From assembly GCA_964016885.1 (NCBI GenBank), contig OZ024742.1:345030001-345094000 (forward strand): a DNA stretch of 64,000 bases, in the 5' to 3' direction. Under the pieces are notes generated by a model, which was not told the origin of the DNA, made no database searches, and saw only the letters and a list, made by a program, of their open reading frames with translations. This DNA is from Eledone cirrhosa. Lineage: Eukaryota. A program made the translations under genes and the position numbers. This document shows, in pieces, positions 1-64,000 of the stretch (position 1 is its first letter; every line of letters begins with the position of its first letter).

Positions 1-696
1 CTGCGTAAATCCAGGTTTTTCCGGATGATAGCATAAAATAAAATAAAAGAGAATTATTTAAAAGCAATATATATATGCATGCACATACACAAATTTACAC
101 GAACAAGCCCACGCACACCCGTTAAAAGTTGAAAGAGTTGAAATGTAAAAGTTAAAAGGTAAAATATTATTTTAAAAACAATCAGTCACACATAATACAC
201 ACTACTGCATGGCCGTTGGTTCTCATGATTTCCTCAGTTTATCATCCTGCCAGATGTCCATGATCACCCTCCTAACCAAGAAAGGTTGGTGAGGTTACCA
301 GTTTAGTCGCCGACGACCCGACCATACTCCATTTATGAAATAATGTACAAGTAAAGTTTGTTTGTGTAGATAAGTGTACAAACAAAAAATAAAACAAGTA
401 AGATTGCTTACCAACGTATTTTTCTCAATATGGTCCTTATAGGTTACAGTAATAGTCCAATAAGAGGGATCAGATTATAGTATCCAGGTGGAAGATCAGG
501 GATTAATAATATTTTTAAATGTATAGGAAAAACATATACTAGACGAACTTTTGGTTAAATTTTTCATTTTTCTATACTTCACGTCCAGTATTTTTTTTTC
601 CTATATATATATATATATATCGCTGAATTTATATTTGTATTAATACCCGAGTCTTACAATTAACCAGTTAATAATTCTATTGAGTTCAAAACCCTT

Positions 697-1707
697 GTGA
701 ATGGACTCAACACTAACTTACAATTCACAATGGGTTACAGCCATAAACAACTCCCTTTCCTCGACATCCTCATCAAGAAAACAAGCAACAAAATAAAAAC
801 AGACATATACTACAAACCCACAGACTCCAAACAATACTTTCCATTCAACTCGTGCCACCCTAGACACACCAAAATGGCAATTCCTTATAACCTAGCCAGA
901 AGGATCTGCACAATAGTTTTAGATAAATACACATGCTACACACGACTAGAAGAATTAAAAAACACACTTATCAGCAGAAACTACCCACCATCCCTTATCA
1001 CCAATGGATTTCAACGTGCCCTAAAACTAGACATCCAGGAACTCAGACACCCCAAACCCAGAAATGAACCGCAACAAAAAACTCTACCATTCATCTCCAC
1101 ACACAACCCCATCATCAATGAGACATTCAACACCATCCTCCAGAACATTCCTTTACTAAAAAGAGACCCAAGAATGAACAATATCCTTCAAACGCACAAC
1201 ATCATAAAGAGCAAAAGACAACCCAAATCCATAAAAAAACATCCTCACACAAGCCAAAATCCCAAAACCCTCACAATGAACCCTACAATAACAAAATGTG
1301 GAAGGCCCACCTGTGGCATATGCATAACTTTAATAGAAGGTTCAACATTCCATTTTAAACAAGGACAACCTTTCACAGTTAAACACAACTTTACATGTGC
1401 ATCTGAAAACCTAATCTATGTTTTGACCTGCTCAGGTTGTCAAGAGCACTACATAGAACAGACAAAAAACAGCCTCCGTCAACGTATGACCGTCCATAAA
1501 TCACAAATTAAAATACAGGAATACAGAAAGATTGCATTTAATGAACATATCGCCAATTGTGCTCTCAACCAACATCCAAACTTTAAAATTTTCCCCACTT
1601 ACAAATTCATAGACAGCGCTACTTTCATCCAACGTACCAATAAGGAAACGCATTTCATTAATAAATTCCAACCACTACTCAATGCTCTAAAATTCGGACC
1701 AATCTAA
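697..1707 (+). CDS. PLE reverse transcriptase C-terminus plus GIY-YIG endonuclease (truncated)
   Basis: LPFLDILI..TDIYYKPTDS..SCHP (PLE RT thumb); CGRPTCGIC Cys motif; NLIYVLTCSGCQEHYIEQT (GIY-YIG); C-terminal E..FINKFQPLLN. Confidence 0.9.
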   Translation: MNGLNTNLQFTMGYSHKQLPFLDILIKKTSNKIKTDIYYKPTDSKQYFPFNSCHPRHTKMAIPYNLARRICTIVLDKYTCYTRLEELKNTLISRNYPPSLITNGFQRALKLDIQELRHPKPRNEPQQKTLPFISTHNPIINETFNTILQNIPLLKRDPRMNNILQTHNIIKSKRQPKSIKKHPHTSQNPKTLTMNPTITKCGRPTCGICITLIEGSTFHFKQGQPFTVKHNFTCASENLIYVLTCSGCQEHYIEQTKNSLRQRMTVHKSQIKIQEYRKIAFNEHIANCALNQHPNFKIFPTYKFIDSATFIQRTNKETHFINKFQPLLNALKFGPI

Positions 1708-5890: not shown

Positions 5891-7654
5891 TATATTTCTT
5901 TATTAGCCACAGGGGCACAAAAGAAGGGGACAAATACAAAGGGGGGAAGTTTACATACAATAAAAACGTGTAAAATGTTATCACAAATGGAATTTAAAAA
6001 GTTAGTCGATTTTCCCCAATAGAGGGAGACAGTTTATATGGGTAACACATACCCCCGAAAAAAAATGTGCAACCCTCATCTCCAGGAGTACGAAGAGTTT
6101 GTACTCCTTTCCTCTCCTCCTCCTTTCCCTCAACCTACAGGCTGATATAGAGAGAAGGCCCATTCACTCGGGCCATTCTCGCCACTTTCACCCACCTTTC
6201 ATAAAACTTGCTGGGGTACAGCACCTCTCTCTCCATCCTGATTCTTCTTCCAAAGTGGTATTTGAAAAAAAGAATCAGTTGTTGGCCGGAGTGAAAGGTG
6301 TCTGACCTCAGCCCTTTCAACATTGTCCACCATACAACTTCTTTCGCCATAGCTATCACACAAAGGAAAACCGCCTCTCCTTCGTTTTTGAAGGAAGGTG
6401 GCGGTTTGATCATGACAATGGACTCGGTGGTCAACTTGATTGGTCCCACCCGCGACAATAGTCGTTCTACATAGCCCCACAGGTCAGTGACGCCCGGGCA
6501 GTGTATGAATGCGCGCGCGACGGTTTCTTCGTCTCGCACGCACCTCGGACAGATCTTTTTTGCAGGGTCCCTGCCCGGGCGCCCATGTCTGTAGAGCTTG
6601 TCTCGAACTGGTAGAGCTCCTCGGTAGCACTGCCAGGCCAGGGACTTTTGGAAGTTGTCCATCGGTCCCGGGCGGAAGGTCCTACCGAACAGACTGGCCA
6701 GTTCATCTTCCACTACGCCTAGAGTTTCACCGAGCGCGTCATCGCACTTGCTGCGGACCAACCCTCTATAGAATGACGAAGTGGAGTCTCCACTGATCGC
6801 CGGGTCCGCCTGCCAGAGGGCTGTGAGCGCCTGAGCACATTCGATGCACCAGTCGCCCATTTTCCTCGGTCTTTGCTTGACCCAGGACTGCAGCTCGGTC
6901 AGCGAGACGAGTCGTGGGAAGGCTCGCCTCACGAACGGGGCCCACACCGGTTGTCCGCTGAGGAATACGTAGAGATGCCGCAGCCTGAGCGCGTGTTTGC
7001 GCATCGTCAACCACGGCATCCCCAGCCCTCCGTTAGAAGGGTGTTGGCAGCAGATGCATCTTCTCACCAAAGGAGCCCGCCTCTTCCAAAGGAATCGGAA
7101 GAGCGCGCGCTCCATTTTGCCGAGCGTTTTGGCTGGACAAGGCACGACGGTCAAGCGGTAGCAGATGGCGGACGCTATAAAAGTGTTCGCTACCTCCGCT
7201 CGACCTTTCAAGGATAGTTTACACTCGGCCCACTTCTGGGTGAGTGCAAACACCTTGGCCGTCACTTCGTTCCAGTTCTTCTCCACCTGGAGGTCCGGAC
7301 CAAACCAGACCCCGAGCAGCTTTACCGGTCCTTCCGTCCAGCGTCCAACGACGCCATCGGAAGGCATCGGTCTGCCTCTCCACGATCCGAGTTGCAAACC
7401 GATGGACTTGTCCCGGGTCAGCTTCGCTCCTGTGACACTTTCGTATTCCTTCAGTAAGGTGCCGACTTCCTCGATTTGCGAGGCACTCGACAGCATTACT
7501 GTCACGCCGCTTTCCGCAGTCCCGGTTCCAGAGGGATGCCCTGCAATAGCTCCAGCTTCCGCAGTAGTGGCTCGAGAGTCAGTACATACAGAAGGGAGGA
7601 GAGAAGGTATCCCTGTCGAATGGATCGCGTAATATGGAACGGCTCCGAGAGGTA
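5891..7654 (-). mobile_element. 5'-truncated Tx1/L1-clade LINE (RT C-terminus, zf-RVT, 3' UTR) in (GATA)n
   Basis: ORF 6135-7505 (GGLG motif, CPRC..ET..H/R.F.HC); RQGYL-SPLLY upstream; gatagata at both ends. Confidence 0.92.
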
Positions 7655-7669
7655 TAGATAGATAGATAG

Positions 7670-7764
7670 GTATTTAATATAGAAATGGGTTCTACAGGAC
7701 TATAACTGTTTCATTCGAAGGAAATAATGAGGAAACTTACTGTGGTTACCCTCGATTGAACCCG

Positions 7765-9699: not shown

Positions 9700-10493
<794 letters not shown>

Positions 10494-16669: not shown

Positions 16670-16718
16670 GATTCCTGATGATTTCTAAAGAATGAAACAG
16701 TTCTAGTCCTGTAGAATC
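16670..16718 (+). ncRNA. Type I hammerhead ribozyme, GUA site
   Basis: gattc CTGATGA tttct aa agaat GAAA cag ttctagtc ctg TA gaatc; ~85 nt tail then (TA)n. Confidence 0.85.
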
Positions 16719-18184: not shown

Positions 18185-20320
18185 GGTAGATTTTCAGAAA
18201 TAGTCATGGTCATCAATTAGTTTATGCACTAACTGGTTTCTCCCTGAGTAGCTTTTCAAAGTTTAATTTTGAATTGTGTTTGTGTTGGATTTACTTTTTC
18301 TCACAAGTTGCTATATGCCCTTTTGAGTTATGTCCTTCGTGTGCTGTTTGTCCTTTTGTCTTTTCTCAAATAAGGGAAGAAACTGTTTATATATTTGTCG
18401 TCGCTTATGACACCAAAAAACATCTTGGTTTCCCAATGAATTCGATGTACAATGAGTTGAGTTTGATAGAATGGGGAAACATCGAAATTAGGCAAGGTCC
18501 ATCCACCACAATCCTGTAAAAGTTAACTAAGAATATCTTTCTGATGTACGGGTCCTTAAATTGTTGGCCATGTATCGTCATCATTTGTCGGAGTGTCAGA
18601 CCTGTTTGACCAATGTACTGTTCATGACAACCTTTGCATGTTGTAATATATATTAAACTGTGTACACTATAGGAGAAGGTTTAATTCTGAAAATGGGTCA
18701 TGACTTTGTCATTTACCTTTTATAATTGAATATTTCTTCATTTTGTTTCTCCTTTAGCAAAATTGGAAAATTTAGTTGTACATCTGCGTAGATTTTGGTG
18801 TTGTTTAGATTAGGAGTTGCAATATATTGTATAAACTGTTTTTGTTTTCTTTGTTTCCGTTTCTAAGAGATCCCGGATGATAATTTGTCATACTTATGTA
18901 ATAACATTCTCGATTAAATGCTGAGGATATTTTCTCAAGAGTAATTTTTCATATCTTTTAGTCTGTGGTGTCTTGATGTTGTGTTTGTAAGTAAGTTAAG
19001 TGTAATATTGGTATGGGTGTGTGTTGGATGAGAGATAAGATGTGAAAAGCGCCATTTTCGGAAGTCCTTAGGTTCGAAATATGTCAGTTTCTAGTTTTGT
19101 GTTTCATTTTGTTATTAGTATGTCTACTAAGGAAAGTGTATCGTTACTGGTGTCCATTTTATTGATAATGTTTTGAAAGATTATTTGTTTGCCAAATTGT
19201 CCTTCACAAAATAAGGCAGTCATCCAGGTATCCATTTCAGTTTTCATTTATATGGTAGCTGAATTCATCCCTGTAAAATGTGAGGATTGTCTTTAGAGTT
19301 TCCATCCATGTTAACCTATGGCTATGCTGGTATATGTTGGGGCAACCTTTATTCTTATTTTGTTGGTAGACTGTTTCATCGAATATGAAATAATTGTTTT
19401 TGAGATTATACTGAAAGTCATCTATAATGAAGTGTTTTATTAATATGGTGTGGTAGCTCACAAGGAAATGTGTCCAAGCGGTATTTAATAGCCTCAATTC
19501 CATGGTCTAGTGGAATGTTATATAGTTTCACAATATTCAGCGAATCTATATAGGTATTTTTGTTTTAACTTTGTTGGTTATTTAAGTCTAGATAGATCGT
19601 CTCGTATGAAGCTCCAAATGTGTTTAAGAAGAGGCTTCAGTAAATTGTCTAGCAGTTTCTTCGGCGATGTGTCTTGCAAAGTAGATCTGTTATAATGGGT
19701 TTTATCTTAAGTAGAATGGTGAGTATATTTCTACAATTGGTTTTTATCTTTTCGCATGTCACATTTATTAGTTTATTATTGTGCCTTTTAGGTACCCCAT
19801 AGAGATTACTTGATTTATATTTAACATCGGTTAGACAATTTTGATGTGACTAGTAAATTAATGGAGTTTGTAATTTATGGAGTTTGTAATGTTGGGTTTC
19901 ATCCTAGTATCTAATGTGCCGTACCAATGTGTCGTGTCAATAAAAACAACAGCGCCTCATTTGTTTGCTTCTCTAACAATATCTATATCCAGTTTTAGAT
20001 CGTTTAGATGGTTTCATTGTTGTATGGTTAAGTTGGATTTTGTCTCATTTCCCATTTATCAACGTGATGATATGAGGTGTATTCTCAAAACTTATCAAGG
20101 GTTGTATCCTTGCCTTTTAGGGTTTGGTATTCAGTTTGGGTTTTGATTAATGGTTCATAGTTGATTGATTCTTCAAAAATTGTTCTGCTGCGAGTCTTCA
20201 ATAATTTTTGGTATATTTACTTAACATATTTTTTGTAATACATACAAGTGATAAAGAGTTTTATGAGGGAATAATCATTTACAGTTTTTTCTAACTGTAG
20301 ACCATCCTTTATCACTGTAT
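18185..20320 (-). mobile_element. Degenerate Neptune-like PLE (RT plus GIY-YIG)
   Basis: YLDDCLI near 19215-19235; LIYITTCKGCHEQYIGQTG near 18600-18657; U3-A8 HHR remnant at 18228-18262. Confidence 0.85.
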
Positions 20321-20748: not shown

Positions 20749-20758
20749 ATATATATAT

Positions 20759-20790
<32 letters not shown>

Positions 20791-20791
<1 letters not shown>

Positions 20792-21191
20792 AACGGAAAA
20801 AATGAAACGAAATCTCATTTCCCACTCTCAGTACGGCTGTTACTTAAATATAAGTATGTACACGTACATACATATATGTATACAGACGTACAGTAGTATG
20901 TATATATATATATACATACATGCACACATATATATATGTACGTATGGATTCACCGAACATTTATTATAATGCTGGGTGTGTTTCTAAACAAACATCCCGT
21001 ATTAAGCCGTAGTGTCTAGGAACCATCGTTGCTCGTTTGTTCAACAAAGGAACGCTGTACTAGTTTCAAGCTTATTAGCTATCGTCAGCAACGTATACCT
21101 TCCTGCCAGATTGTTGAACGTATATACTTACCTTATGCATATTAACGGCGGAGTAGCCCAATTTGCATATCGAGTGGGTTAATCGGCCGGG
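20791..21191 (-). mobile_element. Retrozyme-like monomer (49 kb family) with HHR at 21051-21094
   Basis: Minus strand: acgttg CTGACGA t agct aata agct t GAAA ctag TA cagcgt; octamer atttgcat at 21161-21168. Confidence 0.8.
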
Positions 21192-21484
21192 TGTGTGTGT
21201 GTGTGTATGTGTGTGTATGTATAACGTCATGTAATAAGCCTTAGAATCTTGGTAACATTTACTATTTTAATATTTTATGTAATTTATCTTTTTCCATCCT
21301 TCATCTTATATCGCTCATCCGTTATTTGTAAAAGTAATTACCAAATATTACTTGGATGAACTTCTCAAGGACTCAACATTTTTGAAAACATTTACGTCAT
21401 TTCTTTTTTTTTATTTAGATTTTCTTTCCGCCATTTATATTGATCATATTTTATTTTGCCTCTAGCTCTCCAGCTCTTTAATCC

Positions 21485-22430
<946 letters not shown>

Positions 22431-25416: not shown

Positions 25417-28400
25417 TAACACCATCACCCCAAACATAAACTACTGGTGGTTACTAACCGGTTTCTTCAATTTAGACGAGGACAACCTCATTTCAATAGG
25501 GAAGGTATCCGGCGACGCGTTCAGTGGAACGAGTATCGAAGTTCTGACACAGATAAGGCCAGAACGTATCGCCTAAATCCCTGAGCGCGTCATGCTGGAT
25601 GACCGTACCCACCTCAACATTATTGTGGAGGGTAGGCGTCCCTCCTGTTACCTCTGTGGCAATAGAGGTCACCTGAGGGCTGCCTGTCCCCAGCTCACAC
25701 AGAAAAATAACACTGCTACCAACACCAACACCACCCTAACAACCACAACAAAAACAACCACAACAACAACAACAACAACCAACAACACCACCACCACCAC
25801 CACAACAACAACAACAAACACGTGAAAAAACAACACACAATACTGTCCCACCCAACCCCTCCCCACCCAAAACAAATATAAAACACACACCGCAAACACT
25901 ACCAGAAAACATACACCTCCCACCCAACAAGGAAGACGAACCCCTTTCGTCGCAAGTCGAAAATGATCCCTACCAAACAGTAAAAAGAAAGAAGAGGAGG
26001 CGCACCACAGACACATTTGTTAACTTTAACCCTCCCCAAGAGAACACAAACTATAAAAAAACCACCCCTCCCCGTCACACAACACTAACTGCTACACAAA
26101 AAAAGACTTTACAATATACATACATGAACACAGACAACAAAGAACTACTGAAAACAATTTCATCAAACCCTTCGGTCCAAACTGAAGGGCCTAACTTTAT
26201 AACTGCTGTGCGACTACCTCATTTAAAAATGATTAAAGTCCCAATGAACCTTTATAAAACACTGAAAATAAATTTCACGGAGGACATGCCCCCCCCCCCC
26301 CTGCGCCAAACCAATCAACCGCGTCCTCCTAAAAAATGTCTGTGCTAAGAGTAGGGTGTCTAAATGCGCGTGGCCTGGGCTCATCTTCGAAGCAAGCAAT
26401 GCTTCTAAATGACCTCAGGTCACGATCTATAAATGTGATGGTTATCTGCGAGGCCCGGATCAGCGGCATGCGACAGCTAGCCCCCACCTTTGACGACTTT
26501 GAGATGCACGCATCTCTCTGTCAGCCCGGAGGTGGGGGTTGGGTTGTCGTTCTACTGCAAAAACATCTGGGTCTTGCCACACAGATAGTTCACTTGGACC
26601 CAGGGGGTCGACTGGTGGTGCTGGACCTTGGCAGTGGTGAAGGTGGAGCCTTTAGGCTGGTAGCCGCATATGCCCCTTTTGGGACAGAGCGGCCCGACTT
26701 TTTCCAGCGTCTGGAGTCTTTTCCCTGCTTTTAGTGGGGGACTGGAATGGTATCCTGGATGCACGTTGGGACTATGCAGAGGCATGTCCCGATAGAGAGG
26801 GGTGCAACAGCCTCAAGGGGTTACTCGGCCGATTTGACCTGGCCGATAGATTTCGACTAGATTTTCCGACGGTGCGAACTTGGTCTTGGTCAAATCGCAG
26901 CGGATCATCTAGGTCGTACCTAGATAGATTTTTAGTTAGAAATAAGGACAGGGACTTTTAAGGTGTCCATAAATGCTCATGGTTGGCTATTCAGACCACA
27001 AGTTGGTGACCTGCATGGTCAACCTTGATAGAACGCATAGACACAGCCCCGGTTACTGGAAGCTCAACTTGTCCTTGCCGGCAAGTAGAGCTTACAGGGA
27101 TCGGATTAGTACGTTAGTTAAGGAACGGTTGACTGGAGCGATCGTCAACAGCAGGTGGTGGGTATCTCTAAAGAGAGAGATTAGAGTAGTCTCGATAGAA
27201 TTTAGTAAGGTTCTAGCTGCGGATAGGAATAGGAAGGAATGGGAGCTAATAGATAGAGTAGAAGAGGCAATTAGAAGCGGCGGCGTGGCCATAGTGCTAG
27301 CGTCGAGAACGGCTATGAGCCAGTTTTTCGACGCGAAGCACGAAGGCTGCGTTGTCCGAAGTAAAATACATGCTCTAGGGAACGAGGGGACCAAAGCTGT
27401 TAGCTGGGCCAGCGTGACAGAGGCCAAGAGTGGAACTAAATCCACCAGAATGGACGGTCGATCCTTGAGCCTAAGCAGATGTGTGAGGCCTTTCAAAGGC
27501 ACTTTGCCCGACTGATCGGAAGGGGCGGGGAGCCGGTTGGGGACGTGGACTTCGGTCCATACCTCGACGGCCTGCCGCGTCTCTCGGACAGGGAGGCGAA
27601 GTCCTGCGAGGAGCCGATTTCGGCCGCTGAGATAGAGGACGTGCTGAGCCAATGCGGCAAACGCAAATCCCCGGGTCTCGATGGTCTTCCATACGAATTA
27701 TATCTGGCTATGCCGGACTTGTTCCCCGATCTTCTCGAGGCGGTCTACTGCAACTGGCGACAGAACGGGAGAATTCCCTGTACTGTGACCAAGGGCGTAG
27801 TCACGCTAGTGAGGAAGGACGAGAACAAGGGGGACGAAATAAGTAACTTCAGGCCCATAACTCTGCTAAATACAGAGTTACAGATTTTGGCCAAGGTGCT
27901 AGCAAAGAGGTTGGCGCTTGTCGTGGGCAACCTGGTGGGCGATGCGTAGACATGTGCTATCCCGTCCAGGTCCATCCATGACAACCTCCAGCTCATGCGA
28001 TACATCATAGAGAGGGTTGGGAACAAACCATCTTTGGTGGGGCTCTGATCAACTTGGATAAATCTAAGGTGTTCGATAGGGTCGACCATGGTTACCTGGA
28101 TGCGGTGCTAGCGGCAGCAGGCTTCGGACCCGTTTTCAGGGGCTGGATCACTGCTATGCACAACAGCCGCATCTGCTCTAGGGTCAAGGTGAACGGCTAT
28201 CTCTCGGAGCCGTTCAAAATCGCGCGGTCCATCCGACAAAGGGTGCCCTCTCTCCTCCCTTCTGTATGTATTGACTCTCGAGCCACTACTACGGAAGTTG
28301 GAGTTGTTGCAGGGCATCCTTTTGGAACCGGGATTGCGTAAAGCGGTGTCGGCCTACGCCGATGACGTGACAGTAATGGTGTCGACGGCCTCCGAAATCG

Positions 28401-31040
28401 GGGGTCGACTGGTGGTGCTGGACCTTGGCAGTGGTGAAGGTGGAGCCTTTAGGCTGGTAGCCGCATAGAGTCTTTTCTAGGGACGTCCCGTTCCCTGCTT
28501 TTAGTGGGGGACTGGAATGGTATCCTGGATGCACGTTGGGACTATGCAGGGGCATGTCCCGATAGAGAGGGGTGCAACAGCCTCAAGGGGTTACTCGACC
28601 GATTTGACCTGGCCGATAGATTTCGACTAGATTTACCGACGGTGACAACCTGGTCTTGGTCTTGGTCAAATCGCAGCGGATCATCTAGGTCGCCCCCGTG
28701 CTGAGCCAATGCGGCAAACGCAAATCCCCGGGTTTGGATGGTCTTCCATACGAATTATATCTAGCTATGCCGGACTTGTTCCCCGATCTCCTCGAGGCGG
28801 TCTACTGCGACTGGCAACAGAACGGGAGAATTCCCTGTACTGTGACCAAGGGCGTAGTCACGCTAGTGAGGAAGGACGAGAACAAGGGGGACGAAATAAG
28901 TAACTTCAGGCGCATAACTCTGCTAAATACAGAGTTACAGATTTTGGCCAAGGTGCTAGCAAAGAGGTTGGCGCTTGTCGTGGGCAACATGGTGGGCGAT
29001 GCGTAGACATGTGCTATCCCGTCCAGGTCCATCCATGACAACCTCCAGCTCATGCGATACATCATAGAGAGGGTTGGGAACAAACCATCTTTGGTGGGGC
29101 TCTGATCAACTTGGATCAATCTAAGGTGTTCGATAGGGTCGACCATGGTTACCTGAATGCGGTGCTAGCGGCGGCAGGCTTCGGACCCGTTTTCAGGGGC
29201 TGGATCACTGCTATGCACAACAGCCGCATCTGCTCTAGGGTCAAGGTGAACGGCTACCTCTCGGAGCCGTTCAAAATAGCGCGGTCCATCCGACAAGGGT
29301 GCCCTCTCTCCTCCCTTCTGTATGTGTTGACTCTCGAGCCACTACTGCGGAAGTTGGAGTTGTTGCAGGGCATCCCTTTGGAACCGGGATTGCGTAAAGC
29401 GGTGTCGGCCTACGCCGAAGACGTGACAGTAATGGTGTCGACGGCCTCCGAAATCGGGGCGATCGGCACCTTACTGGAGGAGTACGTAAGGTTCACAGGG
29501 GCTAAGCTGAACAGGGACAAGTCGATCGGTTTGCAACTCGGCACGCGGAGGGGCAGACCGATGCCCTCCAATGGCGTCGTCGGACGCTGGGCGGATGGCC
29601 CGGTGAAGCTGCTCGGGGTCTGGTTCGGACCAGACCTCCAGGTGGAGAAGAGCTGGGCGTAGGTTACGCACAGGGTGTTTGCACTGACCCAGAAGTTGGT
29701 CAGTTGCAAACTATCCCTGAAAGGTCGTGCGTAGGTGCCGAACACCTATATAGCGTCCGTCATCTACTACCGCCTGACCGTAGTGCCTTGCCCAAGGGAA
29801 AGCCTCGCCAAGATGGAGCGCGCGCTCTTCCAATTCCTTTGGAAGAGGTGGGCTCCCTTGGTGAGGAGATCCATCTGCTGTCAACACCCTTCGAAAGGAG
29901 GGCTGGGGATGCCGTGGCTAATGATGCGTAAACACGCATTAAGGCTACGGCACCTCCACGTATTTCTCACCGGTCAACCGGTGTGGGCCTCGTTTGTGAG
30001 ACGAACCTTTCCCAGACTCGTCTCACTCACCGAGCTGCAACCCTGGGTCAAGCAAAGACCGAGAAAACTGGGCGTCTGCCACACTGAGTGTGCCCAGGCG
30101 CTCACCGCCCTCTGGCAGTCGGATCCGGTTATCAGTAGAGACTCCACTGCAACATTCTATAGAGGGCTGGTACGCAACAGGTGCGACGACGCCCTCGGAG
30201 AAGCCCTAGACATGGAGGAAGACGAACTGGCCAGCCTGTTCGGTAGGACATTCAGCCCGGGACCTATGGACAACTTCCAGAAGTCCCTGGCCTGGCAGTG
30301 CTACCGAGGGTCTCTACCCGTTCGAGAAAAGCTCTACAGACACGGGCGCTCAGGTAGGCACCCCGCCAAAAAGATCTGTCCCAGATGCGTGTGCGACCGA
30401 AACCGTTGCACACGCATTGGTACACTGCTCGGGCATAGCCGATCTGTGGGGCTATGTCGAACAACTGCTGTTAAGGGTGGAACCGATCCGGTTGACCACC
30501 GAGTCTATTGTAATTATCAAGCCGCCTCCCCCCTTCAAAGATGAAGGAGAGGCGGTGTTTCTGTGCGTAATAGCCATGGTGAAAGAAGTTGTATGGTGGA
30601 CGCGTCTGAAAGGACTGAGGTCAGGCACCTTACTCTCTGGCCAACAACTGGTCTGTTTCTTCCGATATCATTTCGGAAGAAGGATCAGGATGGAGAGAGA
30701 GGTGCTCGACCCCACTCGTTTTTATGAAAGGTGGGTGAAAGTGGCGAGAATGGCCCGTGTGAATGGGCCTTCTCTTTACATAAGCCTGTAGGCGGAAAAG
30801 AGGAAGGAACGAGGGAACACCCCTCTCTGTGCTCCTGAGGAGAAGGGTTGCACACTTTTTTCGGGGGTGTGTGCGACCCCCCAAGGCGCCTCCTCTCTAT
30901 TGAGGATTTTGTTATAAATTTTATTTTTTGTTATATTTTATTTTATTTTTATATTTTGTTATTGGGGACGCCTTGTTTTGTAAACTCCCCCCTTTGTACT
31001 TGTCCCACTTTTGATGCCCTGGTGGCAAATAAAAGAAACA
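25417..31040 (+). mobile_element. Tx1-clade LINE, ORF1 remnant plus disrupted ORF2, with internal duplication
   Basis: ORF1 knuckle CYLCGNRGHLRAACP; APE motifs LNARGLG, GDWN, SYLDRF, SDHK; RT motifs KSPGLDG, FRPITLLN, KVFDRVDH, RQGCPLS, YADD; starts and ends in (TATC)n. Confidence 0.95.
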
Positions 31041-31070
31041 TATCTATCTATCTATCTATGTATTTACTAT

Positions 31071-33620
31071 CCTTGCAAGACAAAGATGGACGCATTCTAC
31101 TTGAATCCAAGCAGATGTGCACGGTCTTCCACCAGCATTTTGCACAACTGTTCGGGCAAAGCCGTACGTCAAGGGAGGTGATGGACTTCAGCACCTACCT
31201 CGACGGCGTACCACGACTCTCGAACGCGGATGCGGAGAGCTGCGAAAGGCCGATCACAGCGGGCGAAATAGAAGATGCCCTAGGCCGCTGTGGGAAACGC
31301 AAATCACCCGGTTTAGATGGTCTACCCTATGAGTTTTACATAGGCATGCCAGACTTGTTTTCTGGTGACCTCGAAGTTCGAAGCGGTCTACTGCAACTGG
31401 CAGCAGAACGGGAGGATTCCCAGTTCTGTAGGCAGAGGCGTAGTAACGCATATCAAGAAAAATGAGAACAAGGGAGATAAGCAATTTCAGGCCCATAACT
31501 CTGCGCAACACAGAGTTAAAGATTTTGGCCAAGGTGTTAGCAGCGAGGCTGGCGCTTGTCGTCGAGAATCTGGTAGGGGAAGCGCAAACGTGTGCAATTC
31601 CGACTAGGTCCATACACGATAACCTCCACCTCATGCGATACATCCTAGAGAGGATAGGGTGTAAATCTGGCTTCGATGGGGCTCTGATCAATTTAGATCA
31701 GTCTAAGGCATTTGATAGGGTCTACCATTAATACTTGGAAGCGGTTCTCAAGGCGGCCGGTTTCGGTCCCGTCTTCAGAGGCTGGATCGCTGCCATGCAC
31801 ACAAGTATCTGCTCGGCAGTCAAGGTGAATGGCTACCTATCGGAGCCATTCCAAATCATGCGTTCCATTCGACAGGGATGCCCTCTCTCCTCCCTTCAGT
31901 ATGTACTGACTCTCGAGCCATTACTGCGAAAGTTGGAGCTGTTGCAGGGCATCCCGATCGAACCAGGACTGCGGAAAGCAGCGTCGGCCTGTGCCGACGA
32001 CACAACCGTAATGGTGTCGAAAACCTCGGACATCGGGGTAATCGGCAACCTATTACAGGAATACGAAACATTGACAGGAGCAAGACTAAACCCAAACAAG
32101 TCTGTCGGTTTGCAACTCGGCACATGGAGAGGCAAACGCATGTCTTCCGACAGTGTCGCTGGACGCTGAGCGGAAGGACCGGTGAAATTGCTCGGGGTCT
32201 GGTTTGGTCCAGACCTCCAGGTGGACAAAAACTGGAACGAGGTCACAGCGAAGGTATTTGCACTCACCCAGAAGTGGGTTGAGTGCAAACTCCCCTTGAA
32301 AGGTCGAGCGGAGGTGGCGAACACTTACATAGCGTCCGCCATCTACTACCGCTTGACAGTCGTGCCTTGTCCCTGCGAATACCTCACCAAAATGGAACGC
32401 CTACTCTTCAAGTTCCGCTGGAAGAAACAGGCTCCATTGGTGAGGATATCCATCTGCTGTGTACACCCTTCTAACGGAGGGCTGGACATGCCGTGGCTGG
32501 TGATGCGCAAACACGCGCTGAAGCTACGCCATCTCCAGGGGTTTCTGACCGGTGAACCGGCGTGACTGTCGTTTGTGAGACGAACTCTTCCACAACTCGT
32601 CTCACTGACAGAGCTGCAGTCCTGGGTCAAGCGAAGACCGAAAATGGGCGCCTGGCACCTCGATTGCTTTCAGGCGCTCACACCCCTCTACCAAGCGGAA
32701 ACGGCAATCAGCGGAGACTCCACTTCGACATTTTATAGGGGATTAGTGGAGGATAAATGCGACGACGTTCTCGGGGAAACTCTAGGCATCGAGGAAGACG
32801 AACTGACCAGTCTGTTCGGGAGGACTTTCCGTCCAGGGCCTATGGATAACTTCCAGAGGTCCCTGGCCTGGTAGTGCTACCTAGGAGATCTACCAGTTCG
32901 AGACCAAATCTACAGGCACGGACGCCCTGGCAGAGATCCTGCCAAAAGGACCTGTCCAAGATGCAAGCAGGACATCGAAACCATTCTGCACGCAATTGTT
33001 CAGTGCCCAAGGGTGACCGACCTGTGGAATTATGTCGAACAGCTACTGTCACGTGTAGGACGCATCCAGTTGTCAGCCGAGTCCATCGTGAGGATCACCC
33101 CGCCGCCTTCATTTAAGAATGAAGGAGAGGCGGTCTTCCTCTGTCTGGTGGCTATGGCGAAAGAGGTAATATGGCGGACGAGGTTAAAAGGACTGAGGGC
33201 AAGCACATTTCTCTCCGGACAACAACTCATCCCCTTCTTTAAGCACCACCTCAGAAGGAAAGTGAGAGTGGGGAGAGAGGTGCTACACCCCAGTAAATTC
33301 GCAGAAAGGTGGGTGAATGTGGCGAAAATGGCCCGGGTGAATGGGCCTTCTCTGTATATAAACCTGTAGGTTGACGAAGATAAACAGAGGGAAGACGGGA
33401 ACACCTACAAAACGTGTTCCTGGTGTTGAGGGTTGTTCTATCCACGGGGTGCAAAATAACCCCGCAGTAGCATTACCCCCCCACCTAATAGGGATTCCAA
33501 TTCTTTTATTTTTATACAGTTTATTGTTATTTATCATTGTTAAAGCTTTTATGTAAAACCCCCGCCGTCACGTCTTGTAATGTCCCATTTGTGTACGCCC
33601 TTGTGGCAAATAAAAAAAGA
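31071..33620 (+). mobile_element. Tx1-clade LINE, 5'-truncated, second subfamily
   Basis: RT to C-terminus ..ARVNGPSLYINL*; distinct 3' UTR; tatctatc at both junctions. Confidence 0.93.
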
Positions 33621-33645
33621 TATCTATATATATAACTATCTATCT

Positions 33646-36600
33646 ACTTAACTGAAATCGTCTTGAAAGAGGCAATGCCGGAAATACAATACATACAAAG
33701 GGCTAAACTCTATGGAAGCATTTCGGTGCTCTTCAAAAGTGAAGCCCTTGCGAAAACATACTCATTGACCCCGGTCACCTCTGCCACACACACCTTTTTT
33801 CCTACATACATGGGAAAAAGAACACAAATAATAAACATCACCAATATACTACCCAACATTAACATCAGGTGGATTCTGGCAGGTTTCTTGGAGGAAGATG
33901 AAGACACAATACTGTCGATTCAAAAATCCATAAGAAACAACTAGAACGGCACAAGCTTGTAAATTTTGGTCCAAATGAAACCGGACAGAATTCCAAGATA
34001 CCAGAAAGGGGGCCAGTAGACAATACCAATTACATCCACATTTCGGCAGATGCAAGGAGGCAACATTGTTTTAAATGCGCGAGCACATCGCATTTAAAGG
34101 CCTCCTGTCCCCTCTTACGAACAAAAACCCACACCCCCAAAAAGTACTTTTACCAACACCAACTCCAAAACCACAATAACACCAACACACAAAACAAGCA
34201 AACACACAAACACAAACAACTGTTCAACAACAGAAAAAAACACAAACAATTCCGCTGAAAAGCACAGTCCCACCCCATCCCACTCCATCCAACACTACCA
34301 AAATCACACACACAAACACACCATCACCACACAACATAAACCCTCTCACACTCCCCTGATAACGATTCATCACCAGACGAGGCTACTTCTCCTTCCCCAA
34401 GTGAAGATGAAGGAGAGCCTCGTAAATAAAAAAAAAGAAAAAAGAATAGACACTACAAAGCCACAAAAACAACAATCACCAACACAAACACACAACCACC
34501 AACACAAATAACAAATGAAACACCACCCCAATCAACCCCCCACCCCTACCAGCAAAACAAACACCAACACCACCCCAAACACAAATGCCCACCATAAAAT
34601 GAAAACTACAAAATTAACAACAAACCAAAACAACACAACAAAAAAACAAACAACAATACACATACATTAACAAAAACAACAAAAACCTAATGGAGGTCAT
34701 CCCCCAAGACCACAAAGTAGAAACCGAGGGGAAAACGTTTGTAAAAGCAGACTCTCAACCACACTTAAAACTAATAAGGGTTTCGATAGAGACCTATCAG
34801 ACATTGAAAGAAAAGTTTTCACAGGACGTTGGCAACCCCTGCCAAAAACCAATAAACCGTGTCCTGTTGAAATGTTTCCCCACCCCACTCAACACTCCCA
34901 CCAGAACTGAAATGGAGATTGAACAACCCGATCTTCAGGAAACGAAAATGTAAGTGCACCTTTTCGTCCTTTTTTCCAACTCTTCTCCACCAACATGGCT
35001 GACGTACGAGTTGAAAGCGTGAATGAGCGTGGCCTAGGGATGCCCTGGAAACAGGGCCAACTTTTAAACGACCTTAGGTCACACGGTATAGATGTAATAG
35101 CCATCACCGAGTCCAGGATCCACAACAGGCAGCAACTAACCCCCATCTTCAATGACTTTGAGATCTACGCATCTCTCTGTCAGCCGGGAGGTGGAAGGGG
35201 AGTGACTGTCATGTTTCGGAAAAATCTGGATCTCGAAGTACAGCAAGTAAACTTGGACCCGGACATCTAGATCGTATCTAGATAGGTTTTTCATTAGAGA
35301 AAAGGACAATACGATGTTAAGCTGTCCACAAATGCACATGGTTGCCTATTCAGATCACAAACTAGTCGTCTGCATAGTCAACCGTGATAGAATACATAGA
35401 CAAGGAGCCGGATACTGGAAGCTGAACGTGCCGTTGCCGGCACGAAAAGCCTACAGTCAACGGATAAGTAGATTAGTTAAGCAAGGGTTAACGGGAGCCA
35501 TCGTCAACAATAGATAATGGTACTCTCTCAAGAGAGCAATTAGAGTAGAATCGATAGGGTTTAGGAGAGAATTAGCTGTAGAGAAAAACAAATCAGAAAC
35601 AGAACTAGTAGCCAAAGTAGAAGAGCCGCTTAGGAGTGGCAACGCAGCTAGAGTGCTAGCAATGAGAACGGCACTAGACCAGTTTTCGACGTGAAATACG
35701 AAGGTTCCGTGGTCAGAAGTAAATCACGTGCTCTAGGAAACGAGGGAGCAAAAGCTGTTAGCTGGGAGCGAGTGGCGGAAGCGAAAAGTGGCAACAAGTC
35801 CACGATTCGGTCTTTGAAAGACCAAAACGGACGCATGCTACTTGAACCCAGGCAGATGTGCGCGGCCTTTCAGCGGCACTTTGCGCCACTGTTTGAGCAG
35901 AACGACGGTGCACCGAACGGGGCAATGGACTTTGGTTCATACCTCGACGGCCTGCCGCGTCTCTCGAACATGGACGCCGAGTTCTGCGAAAGACCGATCA
36001 CAGCCACTGAGATACGGGACGCTCTGGGAAACGCAAATCACCCGGTCGAGATGGTCTACCGTATGAGTTTTACATAGGCATGCCGGACTTGTTCTCTGGC
36101 GTCCTCGAAGCCGTCTACTGCAATTAGCAGCAGAACGGGAGAATTCCCAGTTCTGCAGGCAAGGGGGACGAAATAAACAATTTCAGGCCCATAACTCTGC
36201 TCAACACAGAGTTAAAGATTTTGGCCAAGATGCTAGCAACGAGGCTGGCGCTTGTCGTCGAAAGCCTGGTAGGGAAAGCGCAAACGTGTGCAATCCCGAC
36301 CAGGTCCATACACGACAGCCTCCACTTCATGAGATAGATCATAGAGAGGATGGGGTGTAAACCCGGCTTCGGTTGGGCTCTGATCAATTTAGATCAGTCT
36401 AAAGCATTCGATAGGGTCGACCATCGATACTTGGAAGCGCTTCTCAAGGCGGCCGGATTCGGTCCCGTTTCCAGAGGCTGGATGAAGGCGATGCACACCA
36501 GCATCTGCTCGAAGGTCAAGGTGAACGGTTACCTATCGGAGCCGTTCGCAATCACACGTTCCATTCGACAGGGATGGCCTCTCTCCTCCATTCTGTACGT

Positions 36601-38302
36601 ATTGACTCTAGAGCCACTACTGCGGAAGTTGGAGCTTTTTCAGGGCATCCCTTTAGAACTGGGACAGCGAAAAGCGGCGCCCGCTTATGCCGACGACGTG
36701 ACGGTAATAGTGTCGAAAACCTCAGAAATCGAGGTAATCGGCAACCTACTACAGGAATACGAAAGGTTCACAGGAGCAAAACTGAACCCGGACAAATCTG
36801 TCGCTTTGCAACTCGGAAGGTGGCGAGGTAAACCGATGCCGACCGACAGCGTCGTCGGACGCTGGACGGAAACCCCGGTGAAATTGCCCGGGGTCTGGTT
36901 CGGTCCAAACCTCCAGGTGGAGAAAAACTGGAACGAGGTCATGGCCAAGGTATTTGCGCTTACCCAGAAGTGGGCAGAGTGCAAACTGTCTTTGAAATGT
37001 CGAGCAGAGGTGACGAACACTTTCATAGTGTCCGTCATCTACTACCGCTTGACTGTCATGCCTTGTCCCCGTGAATATCTCACCAAGATGGAACGCATGC
37101 TTTTCCAGTTCCTGTGGAAGAAGCAGGCTCCGCTGGTGAGAAGATCCGTCTGCTGTCAACACTCTTCCAACGGAGGGCTGGGCATGCCGTGGCTAATGAT
37201 GCAAACAAGCGCTGAGGCTACGGCATCTTCAGGTATTCCTCACCGACCAACCGGTGTGGGCACCGTTTGTGAGACAGGCATTCCTACAACTTGTCTCGCT
37301 GATGGAGCTGCAGTCCTGGGTCAAGTGAAGAAGATGGGCGCCTGGCACATTGAATTCGCCCAGGCGCTCACAGTCCTCTGTCAAGCGGGCACACCAATCA
37401 GTGGAGACTCCACTTCGACATTCTATAGAAGGTTAGTACTTTACAAGTGCGACGACGTGCTCGGGGAGACTCTAGGCGTCGAAGACGACGAGCTCACCTG
37501 TCTGTTCGGTAGGACTTTCCGCCCGGGACCTATGGAGAACTTCCAGAGGTCCCTGGCCTGGCAGTGCTACAGAGGAGCTCTACCTGTTCGAGATAAGATC
37601 AACAGGCTCGGACGCCCCGGCAGGGATCCTTCCAAGAGGACGTGTCTAAGTGGCGAGCAGGACATTGAAACCGTCTTGCACACAATTGTACACTGCCCGG
37701 GCGTAAGCGACCTGTGGAACTATGCAGAACAACTGCTGTCGCGTATGGGACAAATCCAGTTGACTGCCGAGTCCATAGTAAGGATAACACCGCCAGCCTC
37801 TTTCAAAAACGAAAGAGAGGCGGTTTTCCTCTGTACAGTGGCTAAGGTGAAAGAGATGTTTTATGGTGGACGAGATTGAGAGGACTGAGGACAGATGCCT
37901 TTCTCTCCGGACAACAATTGATTCCCTTCTTTAGATACTACTTTAGAAGAAGAATCAGAGTGGAGAGAGAGAGGCACTGCACCCCAGTAAATTTACTGAA
38001 AATGGGGGGGGGGGATAAATGAAGCGAACATGGCCCGAGTGATTGGGCCTTCTCTGTTTATAAGCCTGTAGGTTAAAGATGAGATCAAAAGGAAGAAGGG
38101 AGCACTTGCACAACACGCTCCTGAAGTCGAGGGCTGTTCTATCGACGGGGTATTAAACAACCCATTTGTGGCGTCTCCTCCCTATTGGAGATTTCGATTG
38201 TTATAATTGTTTGTTTTATATTTTTTTTTACACGACTCAATGTAAAATCCCCGGCATGTATTGTCCCCTTTTCTTGTGCGCCCTTTTGGCAAATAAAGAA
38301 AT
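33646..38302 (+). mobile_element. Tx1-clade LINE, ORF1 and ORF2 remnants, third subfamily
   Basis: Knuckle CFKCASTSHLKASCP near 34066; ORF2 start at 34995; RT ORF 36350-37879 with KAFDRVDH, RQG.PLS, YADD; ends aataaagaaatatatctatc. Confidence 0.93.
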
Positions 38303-52409: not shown

Positions 52410-54050
52410 TAATGAATATTAACTGTGCACCTGTGCAGGTAATCAAAATGTATACATATATTGCTTACCTGCACAGGTGCACAGGCAATATTTATTAGAA
52501 TGATGTTGATGTGTATGTACATTTTTGGGATACCATGTATATATATATATATATATATACATATACATCGACTTTCGCGCCAATTCGCGTTTGAAGGTTC
52601 TCTATATTGTCATTTTTACTTAAAAAAAAAGCTCAAATTGTTGTTTTTTTATAAATGTAATTTGGTTGCTTATGACTGTCACGTGAATAAGTACATTAAA
52701 TTTCGCGCCAGTTCGTATTTGGGGGTTTTTTATAGCCGTTTTCACAGTCACGTGATTTGTCATAGAGAGTTTTGTGCCAAACAAAAGTCATTAACCAACC
52801 AAATTATTATTTTTTTTAACCTAGCAATTCGAGCCACTTTTTTCCATATAAAACAGAAGTAACATTCAAACACCAACCAGGTGAGAGAAAAACCACAAAC
52901 CCTCCATCTCAATTCTACTTTTGAAAAGCATTAAGGATGTGAAACCGGAAAAGGAAACAGATAAATATGCTTAAAAAAACTCCAATTGCATTTTCGATTT
53001 CCTTTCCTTATACTTTACTCGTGTAGGACATCCCGTTTTTTTTTTCCTTTAAAAAAAATCCTCATTTTGTTATATATACCTATCACACGAGGACCGAAGA
53101 TGCCAACAAGGTCTCAACAAAACGACAACTCACTGAACCAGGACGTCTTAAATGAACTTAAAGAGATTTCCTCCAAACTTTCAATTTTGACCAACAAAGT
53201 GGACCAAATACATATCTACAAAAAAGGACCCCAGGAAGAAGGAGAACATACTCAAGAGACGGATATTACTCCAGCATTAACTAAACTAATCAAAACTTTG
53301 AAACAGCAATCTTCCAAAAGTTGGAACAACCATTAGAACCCAATCTACGAGAGGTCCACTCAGTGAAAAACACCCTAAACAATATATGGACTCAAAAGCT
53401 CACAACCCGCAAATTGGTCATTTGGAATCTCCTAAAAAATAATTGTTTTCACTTTTGGCACAAGGCCAGCAATTAACCAATGCATTACTGGTACTTTATT
53501 TTATCTCCTAATAAATAATGGCAAGGTAGTTATATATAAAAGGTGGCTAAACCCTACCCCAATCATCCTCCCAAAACAAACTCCAAATAAAACCCATCCA
53601 GAACGAACCAAAAAATCAACAAAAACTTAGGGAAAAGATGGCGTTAGAAAAGTTTAAAATAGAAATAGAACTGTTGCGGTTAAGAGCCAACTCCAACGAA
53701 GAAAGATTTAAGTCACTCGACCAACAGATGGAAACAGAAATCTCGAGCCACTCTGAAGGCCTACTCTATGAAAAAACCTTAACACTTTGGAAAGAAAAGT
53801 GTGAGGAGGAAGAGCTAACATCCCTCCAACAATGGGAAAAAACCCGCCACCTGGTTCAACAACTACGAAATGGATTTCGAAAACGAACACTATACAGGTA
53901 ACCTATTTTCAAAACAAACTAAAACTCACATACCACACTCACAACAAACAACAAAAAATAACAAAACGTCCAACATACCCCCAGCAAAACTATGAGGATA
54001 ATCCCAGAATCCTTAGATATAACCCTACTAAAAATACCCCGAAGTCCCCC

Positions 54051-57452: not shown

Positions 57453-57948
57453 CCCCCCAACACAAGTCAGGACTCGATCTGCAGATCACAACCCGCACAA
57501 AACCTGTTCCAAAATCGTAGACCTCAACCCACACAGAGCCTGTTATAAAATCCCAACCAACACAAAAGAACAAAAATTACAACCCGGACAATCAAGAATC
57601 CGAACCTCAATACGTCCGAAACTTCTATACGAGTCCACACAACAACAGGGAAAATGCCATGAGATATAGTAATACTAGTGTAGGACATCTCGTTTTTTTT
57701 TTCATTTAAAAAAAATCATTTTCTTATGTATATATATATATATATAATTGTTTCTACGTTTGGCACAAGACCAGCAATTACCCAGTGTAATACTGGGACT
57801 TTATTTTATCGACCCCGTAAGGATGAAAACCAAAGTTATACTTGGCGGAATTTGAACTCAGAAGGGCCGTAACTCAATGCGTCAAAGCATGGCGTCCGAC
57901 CCTCTACGAATACTGCCAATCCACCATATATTATATTATATATATATA

Positions 57949-61537: not shown

Positions 61538-61541
<4 letters not shown>

Positions 61542-61862
61542 AAAAAGAGATGAAATCGAAAATGCAACTGAAGTCTTATTTTTTTAAAAAATATATATAT
61601 TTATTTGGTTCCTTTACCGGTTTCGCAGTTCTTCTGCTTTTCAAAAGGTGAGTTGAGATGGAGGGTCTGTGGTTTTTCTCACATCTGAACTCACCTTTTG
61701 AAAAGCAGAAGAACTGCGAAACCGGTAAAGGAACCAAATAAATATATATATTTAAAAAAAAAATAAGACTTCAGTTGCATTTTCGATTTCATCTCTTTTT
61801 CTTTATACTTTCACTCGTGTAGGACACCTCGGTTATTTTTCATTTTGTAAAAAAAACCTCAC

Positions 61863-61870
<8 letters not shown>
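61538..61870 (+). mobile_element. Fold-back footprint with two U3-A8 HHRs
   Basis: ~118 bp near-perfect arms (61538-61654 / 61688-61804) plus tail; (TA)n on both sides. Confidence 0.85.
61694..61731 (+). ncRNA. Type I HHR, U3-A8 core variant
   Basis: cctt TTGAAAA gcag aagaa ctgc GAAA ccgg TA aagg; mirror copy at 61611-61648. Confidence 0.75.
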
Positions 61871-62170: not shown

Positions 62171-62219
62171 GATTCTACATGACTAGAACTGTTTCATTTT
62201 TTAGAAATCATCAGGAATC
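62171..62219 (-). ncRNA. HHR of the 16.7 kb family
   Basis: Minus strand: gattc CTGATGA tttctaaaaaat GAAA cagttctagtcatg TA gaatc; two substitutions relative to 16670. Confidence 0.7.
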
Positions 62220-62695: not shown

Positions 62696-62737
<42 letters not shown>

Positions 62738-62746
62738 CACATACAT

Positions 62747-62822
<76 letters not shown>

Positions 62823-62891
62823 CAATATATATATATATACATACCTACATATACATACATACATACATACATACATACATACATACATACA

Positions 62892-62969
<78 letters not shown>

Positions 62970-62971
<2 letters not shown>

Positions 62972-63617
62972 AAAACAAATAACGAAACGAAATTAAATTT
63001 CGTTTCGTTTGTAACTCACTTTTGTATGACTGACGCTTAAACAATTAAGTTAAAAATGTACATCCACATATGTATACTGAAATACTAGTATGCATATGAA
63101 TACACACACGTGTACATATGTAGATGTACCGAGTTTTTCACTGGACACTTTACTGTGAGTGTTCAGCTATTCTGTATGTAAACACACAGACAAACCGGTT
63201 TTTAGAGTCATACTGGTTTTCGAGGAAACACCTTTCCTCTATTCTCCAGAAAGCCAGACAGGAATATTGGACTAGTTTCGATGTTGTTACATCTCATCAG
63301 CAATATTTACCTATCCTCCGGCCTTTCTAGAGAATCGTAAAAGCACATATCGTTATATGCTTTTTCTATGAAAATTAGTAGTGGGCAGACTAATTTGCAT
63401 AGAGCGTGAGTACGTACCGGTTCAGCGGAGACGATAAAAACAAATAACGAAACGAAATTAAATTTCGTTTCGTTTGTAACTCACTTTTGTATGACTGACG
63501 CTTAAACAATTAGGTTAAAAATGTACATCCACATATGTATACTGAAATACTAGTATGCATACGATTCTCTAGAAAGGCCGGAGGATAGGTAAATATTGCT
63601 GATGAGATGTAACAACA
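62970..63617 (-). mobile_element. Retrozyme-like element: ~465 bp monomer, partial tandem copy and inverted piece
   Basis: 62970-63096 repeated at 63435-63561; 63561-63617 is the inverse of 63283-63338. Confidence 0.82.
63263..63307 (-). ncRNA. Type I hammerhead ribozyme, GUC site
   Basis: Minus strand: aatattg CTGATGA gatgt aaca acatc GAAA ctag TC caatatt; perfect 7-bp stem I and 5-bp stem II. Confidence 0.92.
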
Positions 63618-64000
63618 TTTTAATACTACAACAATTTTAATACTACTACACCAAATGACCAGCCCTGTCCACTGTCCAATTGGTCAAGTAGAGACTAAAA
63701 TTGGCACTCCCAAAAATTCTTATTTAGACAAAATGAACCATTTACTCATGGTATTCTCATTAGAAACCCATTATATACTTGTTTAGCAGTAAATTGATTT
63801 ACCATCTGTCATATACTATCCCCTCTTTTTCTTCCTCTATTACTAATATAAATACTTCAATTTTTCTGATTTTATCCAATTTATCCAAAATCTCTGAAGA
63901 AGTGACAACTGATTATACATTTGCTATCGAATACTTGCTAACATTATATGATTACGCAAGCAGCGATACATAGGTATTCCGTCTGTTACAGAAACATATG

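What the first reader, a model, noticed from the sequence alone, without database searches (positions are those of the whole stretch)
62970..63617. Second retrozyme subfamily with covarying stems and the same architecture
Seen: stems I and II differ from the 49 kb HHR (aatattg/caatatt vs aacggtg/catcgtt; gatgt/acatc vs agct/agct) but pairing, the AACA loop and the palindromic ACTAGT stem III are kept, as is the monomer, partial, inverted layout. Inference: the covariation indicates selection on the RNA fold.
Basis: partly seen in the sequence, partly recalled or inferred. Interest (0 to 1): 0.7.

Follow-up and report, generated by a model that had tools for sequence, protein, structure and literature searches.

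The report
Penelope-inserted hammerhead retrozyme, truncated copy
This is one truncated copy of a young 465-base repeat, present as thousands of units in this animal genome, that carries a predicted self-cutting RNA fold whose base pairs stay matched between lineages and that was likely pasted in by Penelope-type jumping-gene enzymes, a known kind of element.

Summary
A minimal type I hammerhead lies on the minus strand (C17 at 63270) in a 465-nt unit, followed by a partial unit and an inverted piece. The genome holds 7,671 units with this lineage group's core and 39,611 of the wider family.

Covariation holds up. Across 16 lineage representatives 93.8% of stem cells pair, against 62-70% in a tree-based null (P<0.001). 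Most double changes sit on one long branch.

Of 38 complete two-armed insertions, 33 end at two fixed sites about 70 nt apart, mostly in (AT)n. This is the Penelope 'tail' signature. Inner junctions do not pile up at the cut site, so the template likely ran through it; circle and uncut multimer cannot be told apart.

This copy lost most of its second arm and has one complete ribozyme, so selection likely acted on source copies. Cleavage and expression are untested, and no homologous autonomous parent was found. One insertion joins a retrozyme arm to a Penelope ORF arm.

Verdict: a new member of the animal non-LTR retrozymes. The scan reported related two-armed families on other DNA of this genome.

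The parts
62969..63433 (-). Full 465-nt retrozyme unit (unit positions 1-465 = 63433 down to 62969), outer lap of the long arm
   Evidence: fold z -10.1
63434..63564 (-). Partial second unit (positions 335-465), 5'-truncated inner end of the long arm
   Evidence: 98.5% to 62969-63099
63560..63618 (+). Remnant of the opposite (short) arm, positions 95-153; hammerhead breaks off inside stem II
   Evidence: 100% to 63281-63339
63263..63307 (-). Minimal type I hammerhead: stem I 63307-63301/63269-63263, CUGAUGA 63300-63294, stem II 63293-63289/63284-63280 with AACA loop, GAA, palindromic ACUAGU 63276-63271, C17 at 63270
   Evidence: cleavage not tested
63241..63335 (-). Extended stem I hairpin around the hammerhead (UA bulge, GG/CC, distal stem with compensatory pairs)
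63393..63400 (-). ATGCAAAT octamer-like motif in a hairpin, shared with the 49 kb and 21 kb lineages; possible promoter element (label recalled, untested)
62969..63037 (-). 'Tail' between the short end (positions 386-398) and the long end (462-465); holds a 13-bp terminal hairpin at 63009-62981
62696..62968 (.). (AT)n/(CATA)n microsatellite, target at the long end
   Evidence: 66 of 71 long or short ends abut (AT)n
63619..63637 (.). About 19 nt of duplicated filler joining the arm remnant to the middle of another repeat; inferred deletion scar
   Evidence: comparison with L177
49078..50288 (.). Sister-lineage (B) complete two-armed insertion, both ends in (AT)n, 60-nt tail
20749..21191 (-). 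Third related unit (B2 lineage, AATA loop)

Best explanation
This is a truncated copy of a young, high-copy, non-coding 465-nt repeat with a type I hammerhead fold (a non-LTR retrozyme) that was likely inserted by the reverse transcriptase and GIY-YIG endonuclease of a Penelope-like element, and whose stems were likely kept paired by selection on the RNA of source copies. Shown: unit, copy number, paired stems across lineages, two opposed arms, two fixed outer ends, (AT)n targets, scattered inner junctions. Inferred: tandem source arrays are transcribed; neighbouring hammerheads pair through the ACUAGU palindrome and cut after GUH; a PLE protein nicks both strands of an (AT)n target and primes one cDNA at position about 465 and the other at about 391; copying runs through the cut site on a circle or an uncut multimer; the two 5'-truncated cDNAs are joined head to head. 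In this copy a later deletion removed positions 154-391 of the short arm, which leaves one complete hammerhead and so no unit-length RNA from this locus.
For: Copies: 41 full-length matches to a 221-nt query at 100% rounded identity among 47 listed (40 of 849 candidates scored); 7,671 exact cores of this group; 39,611 of the family against 2 controls. Pairing: 93.8% of 336 cells, 9 of 21 pairs with a change on both sides, slid controls 30-46%; tree null 62-70%, P<=0.0007 in 8 of 8 settings. Stem II pair A-U or U-A in all 100 listed rows; the U.U intermediate is 3 of 7,671. One stem I position shows four pair types. Ends: 33 of 38 complete two-armed insertions have one long and one short end, none has two of the same; 66 of 71 such ends abut (AT)n; direct repeats of 15 and 17 nt flank two non-microsatellite insertions (L005; L292). 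Autonomous RT+GIY-YIG elements exist here with the same two-end (TA)n layout and tails of 62 and about 39 nt. The tail equals the span between two RT start sites in vitro (PMC11167929). Inner ends: 0 of 58 at positions 160-170; 5 pattern matches genome-wide at the cut.
Against: No cleavage or expression data. The lowest-energy fold pairs C3-G5 with the stem III strand (-16.7 against -15.2 kcal/mol for the open hammerhead fold). Only 1 of 9 Xenopus retrozyme dimers cleaved in vitro (preprint), and hammerhead mutants did not affect PAc insertion in vitro. The count of pairs with double changes does not beat the column shuffle (184/500) and gives P 0.002-0.17 in the tree null. The base pair of stem II and the top pair of stem I are broken in 8 and 9 of 16 rows. 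Ten of 36 lineage-level variants at paired sites of the whole unit break a predicted pair. Core invariance is partly forced by pattern-based sampling. No PLE pseudo-LTR homologous to the unit among 50 GIY-YIG loci examined, of 10,595 candidates. Long arrays show DNA-level block duplications (L234-L236), so array length is not purely a copying record.
Confidence: 0.85

Rival explanations
1. Same PLE-driven insertion, but the hammerhead never needs to cut: the hairpin is kept as a protein-binding or packaging structure and the template is an uncut read-through multimer of an older array, not a circle.
For: Hammerhead cleavage was dispensable for PAc insertion in vitro. In L029 one variant sits in the second lap of both arms and not in the first, which fits a template with unlike units. 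The triple-variant sublineage has mostly long arrays (70 matches in 7 insertions). No variant private to one insertion and fixed in a long two-armed array was found that would force a single circle.
Against: The unpaired catalytic core (except N7 and H17) is invariant across lineages about 66% identical, H17 varies only among C, U and A, though sampling favours this. In L291 a lineage switch maps between positions 165 and about 213-233, next to the cut at 164/165 (one case).
Confidence: 0.35
2. The repeat is a DNA-level satellite or palindromic element spread by recombination or a DNA transposase, and the fold is a relic.
For: Long arrays carry higher-order duplications; AT-rich palindromes inflate folding scores.
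Against: Fixed asymmetric outer ends, scattered inner truncation points, (AT)n targets and long direct repeats match PLE insertions. A three-site A>G change in one stem occurs only as the triple (70 of 70), as one editing hit on an RNA would give.
Confidence: 0.04
3. These are solitary or tandem pseudo-LTR fragments of an unfound autonomous PLE, not a self-standing non-autonomous family.
For: 5'-truncated PLEs give pLTR-only copies (preprint); only 50 PLE loci were examined.
Against: Units run head to tail for up to 33 copies with no ORF; none of 56 insertions continues into a homologous ORF. The one ORF-linked case has an unrelated pseudo-LTR.
Confidence: 0.08

Closest known systems
Animal non-LTR retrozymes (Cervera and de la Pena 2020, PMC7229834, passages seen; Li, Clavereau and Pollet 2026, bioRxiv 10.64898/2026.07.22.740005, parts 1-3 of 5 read)
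   Same: Non-coding tandem units, one type I hammerhead per unit, low GC (37%), highly self-paired, thousands of dispersed copies, long target duplications where visible, PLEs in the same genome.
   Different: 465 nt lies above the 170-400 nt expressed range of 2020 but inside the 51-972 bp range of 2026. Head-to-head arms with two fixed ends are not described for retrozymes in the parts seen ('inverted' occurs 0 times in PMC7229834). Expression, circles, cleavage and homology to a pseudo-LTR are not shown here.
EN+ Penelope-like elements (Craig et al. 2021, PMC8557442, passages; Frangieh et al. 2024, PMC11167929, parts 1-2 of 4 read)
   Same: Partial tandems, inverted 5'-truncated arm, tail at one end only, AT-rich or (TA)n targets, hammerhead upstream of the RT start sites.
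   Different: No ORF; tail 69-74 nt against 30-40 nt in print (62 and about 39 nt in local PLEs); either arm can hold many units.
Metazoan type I hammerheads with short palindromic helix III that act as dimers (Cervera and de la Pena 2014, PMC4209133, part 1 of 4; review PMC6765202, passages)
   Same: Helix III of 1-2 bp closed by a palindromic loop, bulged helix I, short helix II.
   Different: Helix II base pair is not conserved across the lineages here; Rfam models do not reach threshold; dimer activity untested.

Membership tests
Type I hammerhead ribozyme | CUGANGA / GAAA / UH core with stems I-III in type I order | tested here: met
Type I hammerhead ribozyme | Stems kept by compensatory change | tested here: met
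   limited independent events
Type I hammerhead ribozyme | Match to a curated Rfam model | tested here: not met
   0 hits at gathering score in the window; E-value mode not run
Type I hammerhead ribozyme | Self-cleavage after H17 | not testable with these tools
   energy estimates only
Animal non-LTR retrozyme | Non-coding tandem units each with a type I hammerhead | tested here: met
   family arrays of up to 33 units; this locus has one complete hammerhead, so it fails the two-unit 'active' criterion of the 2026 preprint
Animal non-LTR retrozyme | Low GC, self-paired, no LTR layout, long target duplication | tested here: met
   GC 170 of 465; z -10.1; 15- and 17-nt direct repeats in L005 and L292
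Animal non-LTR retrozyme | Expressed as linear and circular RNA | tested here: inconclusive
   no RNA holder listed; contigs only
Animal non-LTR retrozyme | Homology to a PLE pseudo-LTR | tested here: inconclusive
   none in 50 PLE loci of 10,595 candidates
PLE-type insertion | Inverted truncated arm plus one-sided tail (two RT start sites) | tested here: met
   33 of 38; this copy is one of the 5 exceptions
PLE-type insertion | AT-rich or (TA)n target | tested here: met
   66 of 71 ends
Autonomous PLE | RT plus GIY-YIG ORF | tested here: not met
   no ORF of 200 aa or more overlaps the locus; no PLE match beside it except a weak 23% hit 1.3 kb away

The most novel reading that the evidence does not exclude
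Each arm of a PLE-type insertion is primed on its own RNA: a Penelope protein dimer cuts both strands, starts one template at the long site and the other at the short site, and can carry a retrozyme circle and its own mRNA together. L267 would be such a hybrid: its retrozyme arm ends at the long site, its RT-GIY-YIG arm ends at that family's short site, both in (AT)n. It would name the mobilising PLE although that PLE shares no sequence with the retrozyme. L248 has two different lineages in its two arms.
Probability: 0.3. Interest if true: 0.72.

Novelty: new member of a known kind. Interest (0 to 1): 0.42.

Why it matters
The element type is known and its link to Penelope-like elements is proposed in print from co-occurrence and pseudo-LTR homology. 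This family adds insertion-level evidence: a strict long/short end rule, (AT)n targets and copying through the cut site, in a lineage young enough that units at seven loci are near-identical. It offers a ready template and candidate enzymes for testing how retrozymes are mobilised, and whether circles or uncut multimers are copied. The locus itself is an ordinary dead copy.

Tried and rejected
Rfam scan: no hit. Sequencing runs: no RNA holder listed. Runs X4 and X5 each hold one self-looping contig of unit length plus 30; run type is unknown, tandem DNA gives the same, and X5 also holds the B family, so this is not used. Autonomous parent: no homology of the unit to pseudo-LTRs in 30+20 GIY-YIG loci; 18 other ACTAGT-type motifs were unrelated singletons or the B family. 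Single-circle proof: the A>G triple fixed in all 20 units of L229 is not private, it occurs in 7 insertions. General editing signature: unit-private changes show A>G 16 against T>C 32, no excess. Copying of cut linear monomers: no pile-up at the cut. L268 as a second hybrid: the PLE piece stops after about 190 nt with no family end, so it may be a nested insertion. Changes could not be mapped to individual branches, so the number of independent compensations is not counted. Lunse et al. 2017 is not held. Literature searches; none listed a paper on this family or on hybrid two-armed insertions, judged from listings only. bioRxiv supplements were closed and may list related families. Search of earlier findings by sequence gave nothing.

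Full report
Observation. The minus strand at 63307-63263 reads as a type I hammerhead: a 7-bp stem I, CUGAUGA, a 5-bp stem II with an AACA loop, GAA, the palindrome ACUAGU, and C17 at plus 63270. It sits in a 465-nt unit (62969-63433), followed by a partial unit (63434-63564) and an inverted 59-nt piece (63560-63618) that breaks off in stem II. The two units are about 66% identical overall. Rfam has no match at gathering score. The hammerhead folds at z -3.6 and the unit at z -10.1 against shuffles; AT-rich palindromes add to the latter.

Family. The window lies in a 3.0-Gb animal genome; earlier scan notes call it a cephalopod, which I did not check. A 221-nt query gave 41 full-length matches at 100% rounded identity among 47 listed, with only 40 of 849 candidates scored. 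The core of this lineage group occurs 7,671 times and the wider pattern 39,611 times against 2 controls. One sublineage has 70 marked units in 7 insertions with almost no substitutions, so copying is very recent.

Covariation. I aligned 16 real copies standing for lineages: 12 multi-insertion clusters were found among 141 insertions; I used representatives of 11 of them (the window copy standing for its own cluster) plus 5 further haplotypes, and left out the other singletons. On 21 named pairs, 93.8% of 336 cells pair and 9 pairs show a change on both sides; slid controls give 30-46%. The shuffle control is beaten for cells (0/500) but not for number of pairs (184/500). A null that evolves columns independently along the tree gives 62-70% paired, P<=0.0007 in all 8 settings, and P 0.002-0.17 for double-change pairs. 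Most double changes lie on one branch of 1.25 substitutions per site. Others are inside groups: stem II A-U versus U-A, paired in all 100 listed rows, with the U.U form at 3 of 7,671 (the A.A form was not counted); and one stem I position with U-A, G.U, U.G and A-U. Against: two end pairs are often broken, 10 of 36 lineage variants at paired sites of the whole unit break a pair, and unit-private changes are not significantly rarer in the core (2/2,216 against 201/85,761, P=0.11). The structure was drawn from these sequences and loci were found by the core pattern. I read this as selection on source lineages with neutral decay of copies.

Insertion anatomy. Among 56 insertions (315 units; a non-random sample) 38 were complete and two-armed. 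In 33 of them one arm ends at 462-465 and the other at 386-398; none has two long or two short ends. Of 71 such ends 66 abut (AT)n. Two insertions outside microsatellites show 15- and 17-nt direct repeats. This matches the PLE layout of an inverted truncated copy and a one-sided tail (PMC8557442, passages), and the tail corresponds to two RT start sites in vitro (PMC11167929, parts 1-2 of 4). The genome has many GIY-YIG candidates; 7 of 9 ORFs scanned had both RT and GIY-YIG Pfam matches or, for the other listed cases, one of them, including a 938-aa frame with both, RT scores mostly just under the curated cut-off (exactly 6 of 9 had both). Two local PLE families show the same two-end rule with tails of 62 and about 39 nt. 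Their pseudo-LTRs are not homologous to the unit.

Template. None of 58 resolved inner junctions falls at 160-170 (10 unresolved ends and 4 insertions chosen by the cut-site pattern were left out). Genome-wide, 5 matches and 4 true junctions lie exactly at the cut, against my rough estimate of 2-3 by chance. Copying therefore ran through the cut site. A circle or an uncut multimer both fit. L029 hints at a template with unlike units, and long arrays carry DNA-level duplications. L291 switches lineage just 3' of the cut. An A>G triple in one stem occurs only as the triple (70 of 70), which suits one editing hit on RNA; it destroys the octamer-like motif shared by all three window lineages. There is no general A>G excess.

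This copy. It is one of the 5 exceptions: long end in (AT)n, short arm stopping at 153, about 19 nt of duplicated filler, then the middle of an unrelated repeat. I infer a deletion after insertion. With one complete hammerhead it cannot release a unit-length RNA or form a dimer in cis. Stem III is unstable in the monomer (-9.3 kcal/mol with one pair against -15.2 open) while ACUAGU self-pairs at -4.8, as for dimer-acting metazoan hammerheads (PMC4209133, part 1 of 4; PMC6765202, passages).

Novel lead. In L267 a retrozyme arm ends at the long site, and the opposite arm is 42 nt of retrozyme joined to a 5'-truncated RT-GIY-YIG element that ends at its family's short site; both ends are in (AT)n. 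The PLE part is 98-99% like its closest copies over 441 nt and carries a stop and frameshifts; the retrozyme units differ from each other by 0.4%. A nested insertion with deletion explains it equally. L248 has two lineages in its two arms. These are 2 of 38.

Comparison and verdict. It works like, and meets the sequence criteria of, an animal non-LTR retrozyme (PMC7229834, passages; bioRxiv 10.64898/2026.07.22.740005, parts 1-3 of 5); expression, circles and cleavage are untested. Earlier scan notes describe two-armed families elsewhere in this genome. I had the end rule before reading them; note e1-8803865 gave the editing lead, which held for one triple only, and its 'cut units' reading was not supported by my junction counts; the single-circle reading of e1-8665707 was neither confirmed nor excluded. 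Verdict: new member of a known kind, interest 0.42.

Noticed in passing
window 61540-61870: Two-armed pseudo-LTR fragment of an RT+GIY-YIG PLE family (same terminus as L091, L096, L102; 62-nt tail; (TA)n target); no canonical hammerhead seen in that pseudo-LTR.
   Followed up: partly
window 62192-62214 (-) and 16675-16697 (+): A different hammerhead-like family (TTTC stem II, AGTTCTAGTC after GAAAC), frequent in fetched loci.
   Followed up: no
window 10191-10213 (+); L094, L095, L106: Hammerhead-like motif lying downstream of RT-GIY-YIG ORFs, probably the pseudo-LTR ribozyme of another autonomous PLE.
   Followed up: partly
window 17107, 31778, 41235, 44640, 51685, 11352 (all -): Further hammerhead-like cores of other repeat families.
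   Followed up: no
L267:1653-5389: Hybrid insertion: retrozyme arm at the long end, PLE ORF arm at that family's short end, both in (AT)n.
   Followed up: partly
L229, L286-L292: Very young sublineage, 70 marked units in 7 insertions, with three A>G changes in one stem that destroy the octamer-like motif and never occur singly at the middle site.
   Followed up: partly
L291:65-921: Array switches from one lineage to another just 3' of the hammerhead cut site.
   Followed up: partly
L281, L284, L285: Three separate insertions share the same arm junction (positions 165 and 174), with short microhomology.
   Followed up: partly
L236 and L234-L235: Long arrays with a five-unit higher-order repeat or local block duplications, a step towards satellite DNA.
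   Followed up: no
window 664-1707 (+), 18528-19834 (-), 53786-53956, 57548-57676: Fragments of PLE RT/GIY-YIG ORFs elsewhere in the window.
   Followed up: no
window 6053-7673, 21444-22242, 27800-37900: Several copies of a GC-richer coding repeat with ORFs up to 513 aa, direct and inverted; not identified.
   Followed up: no
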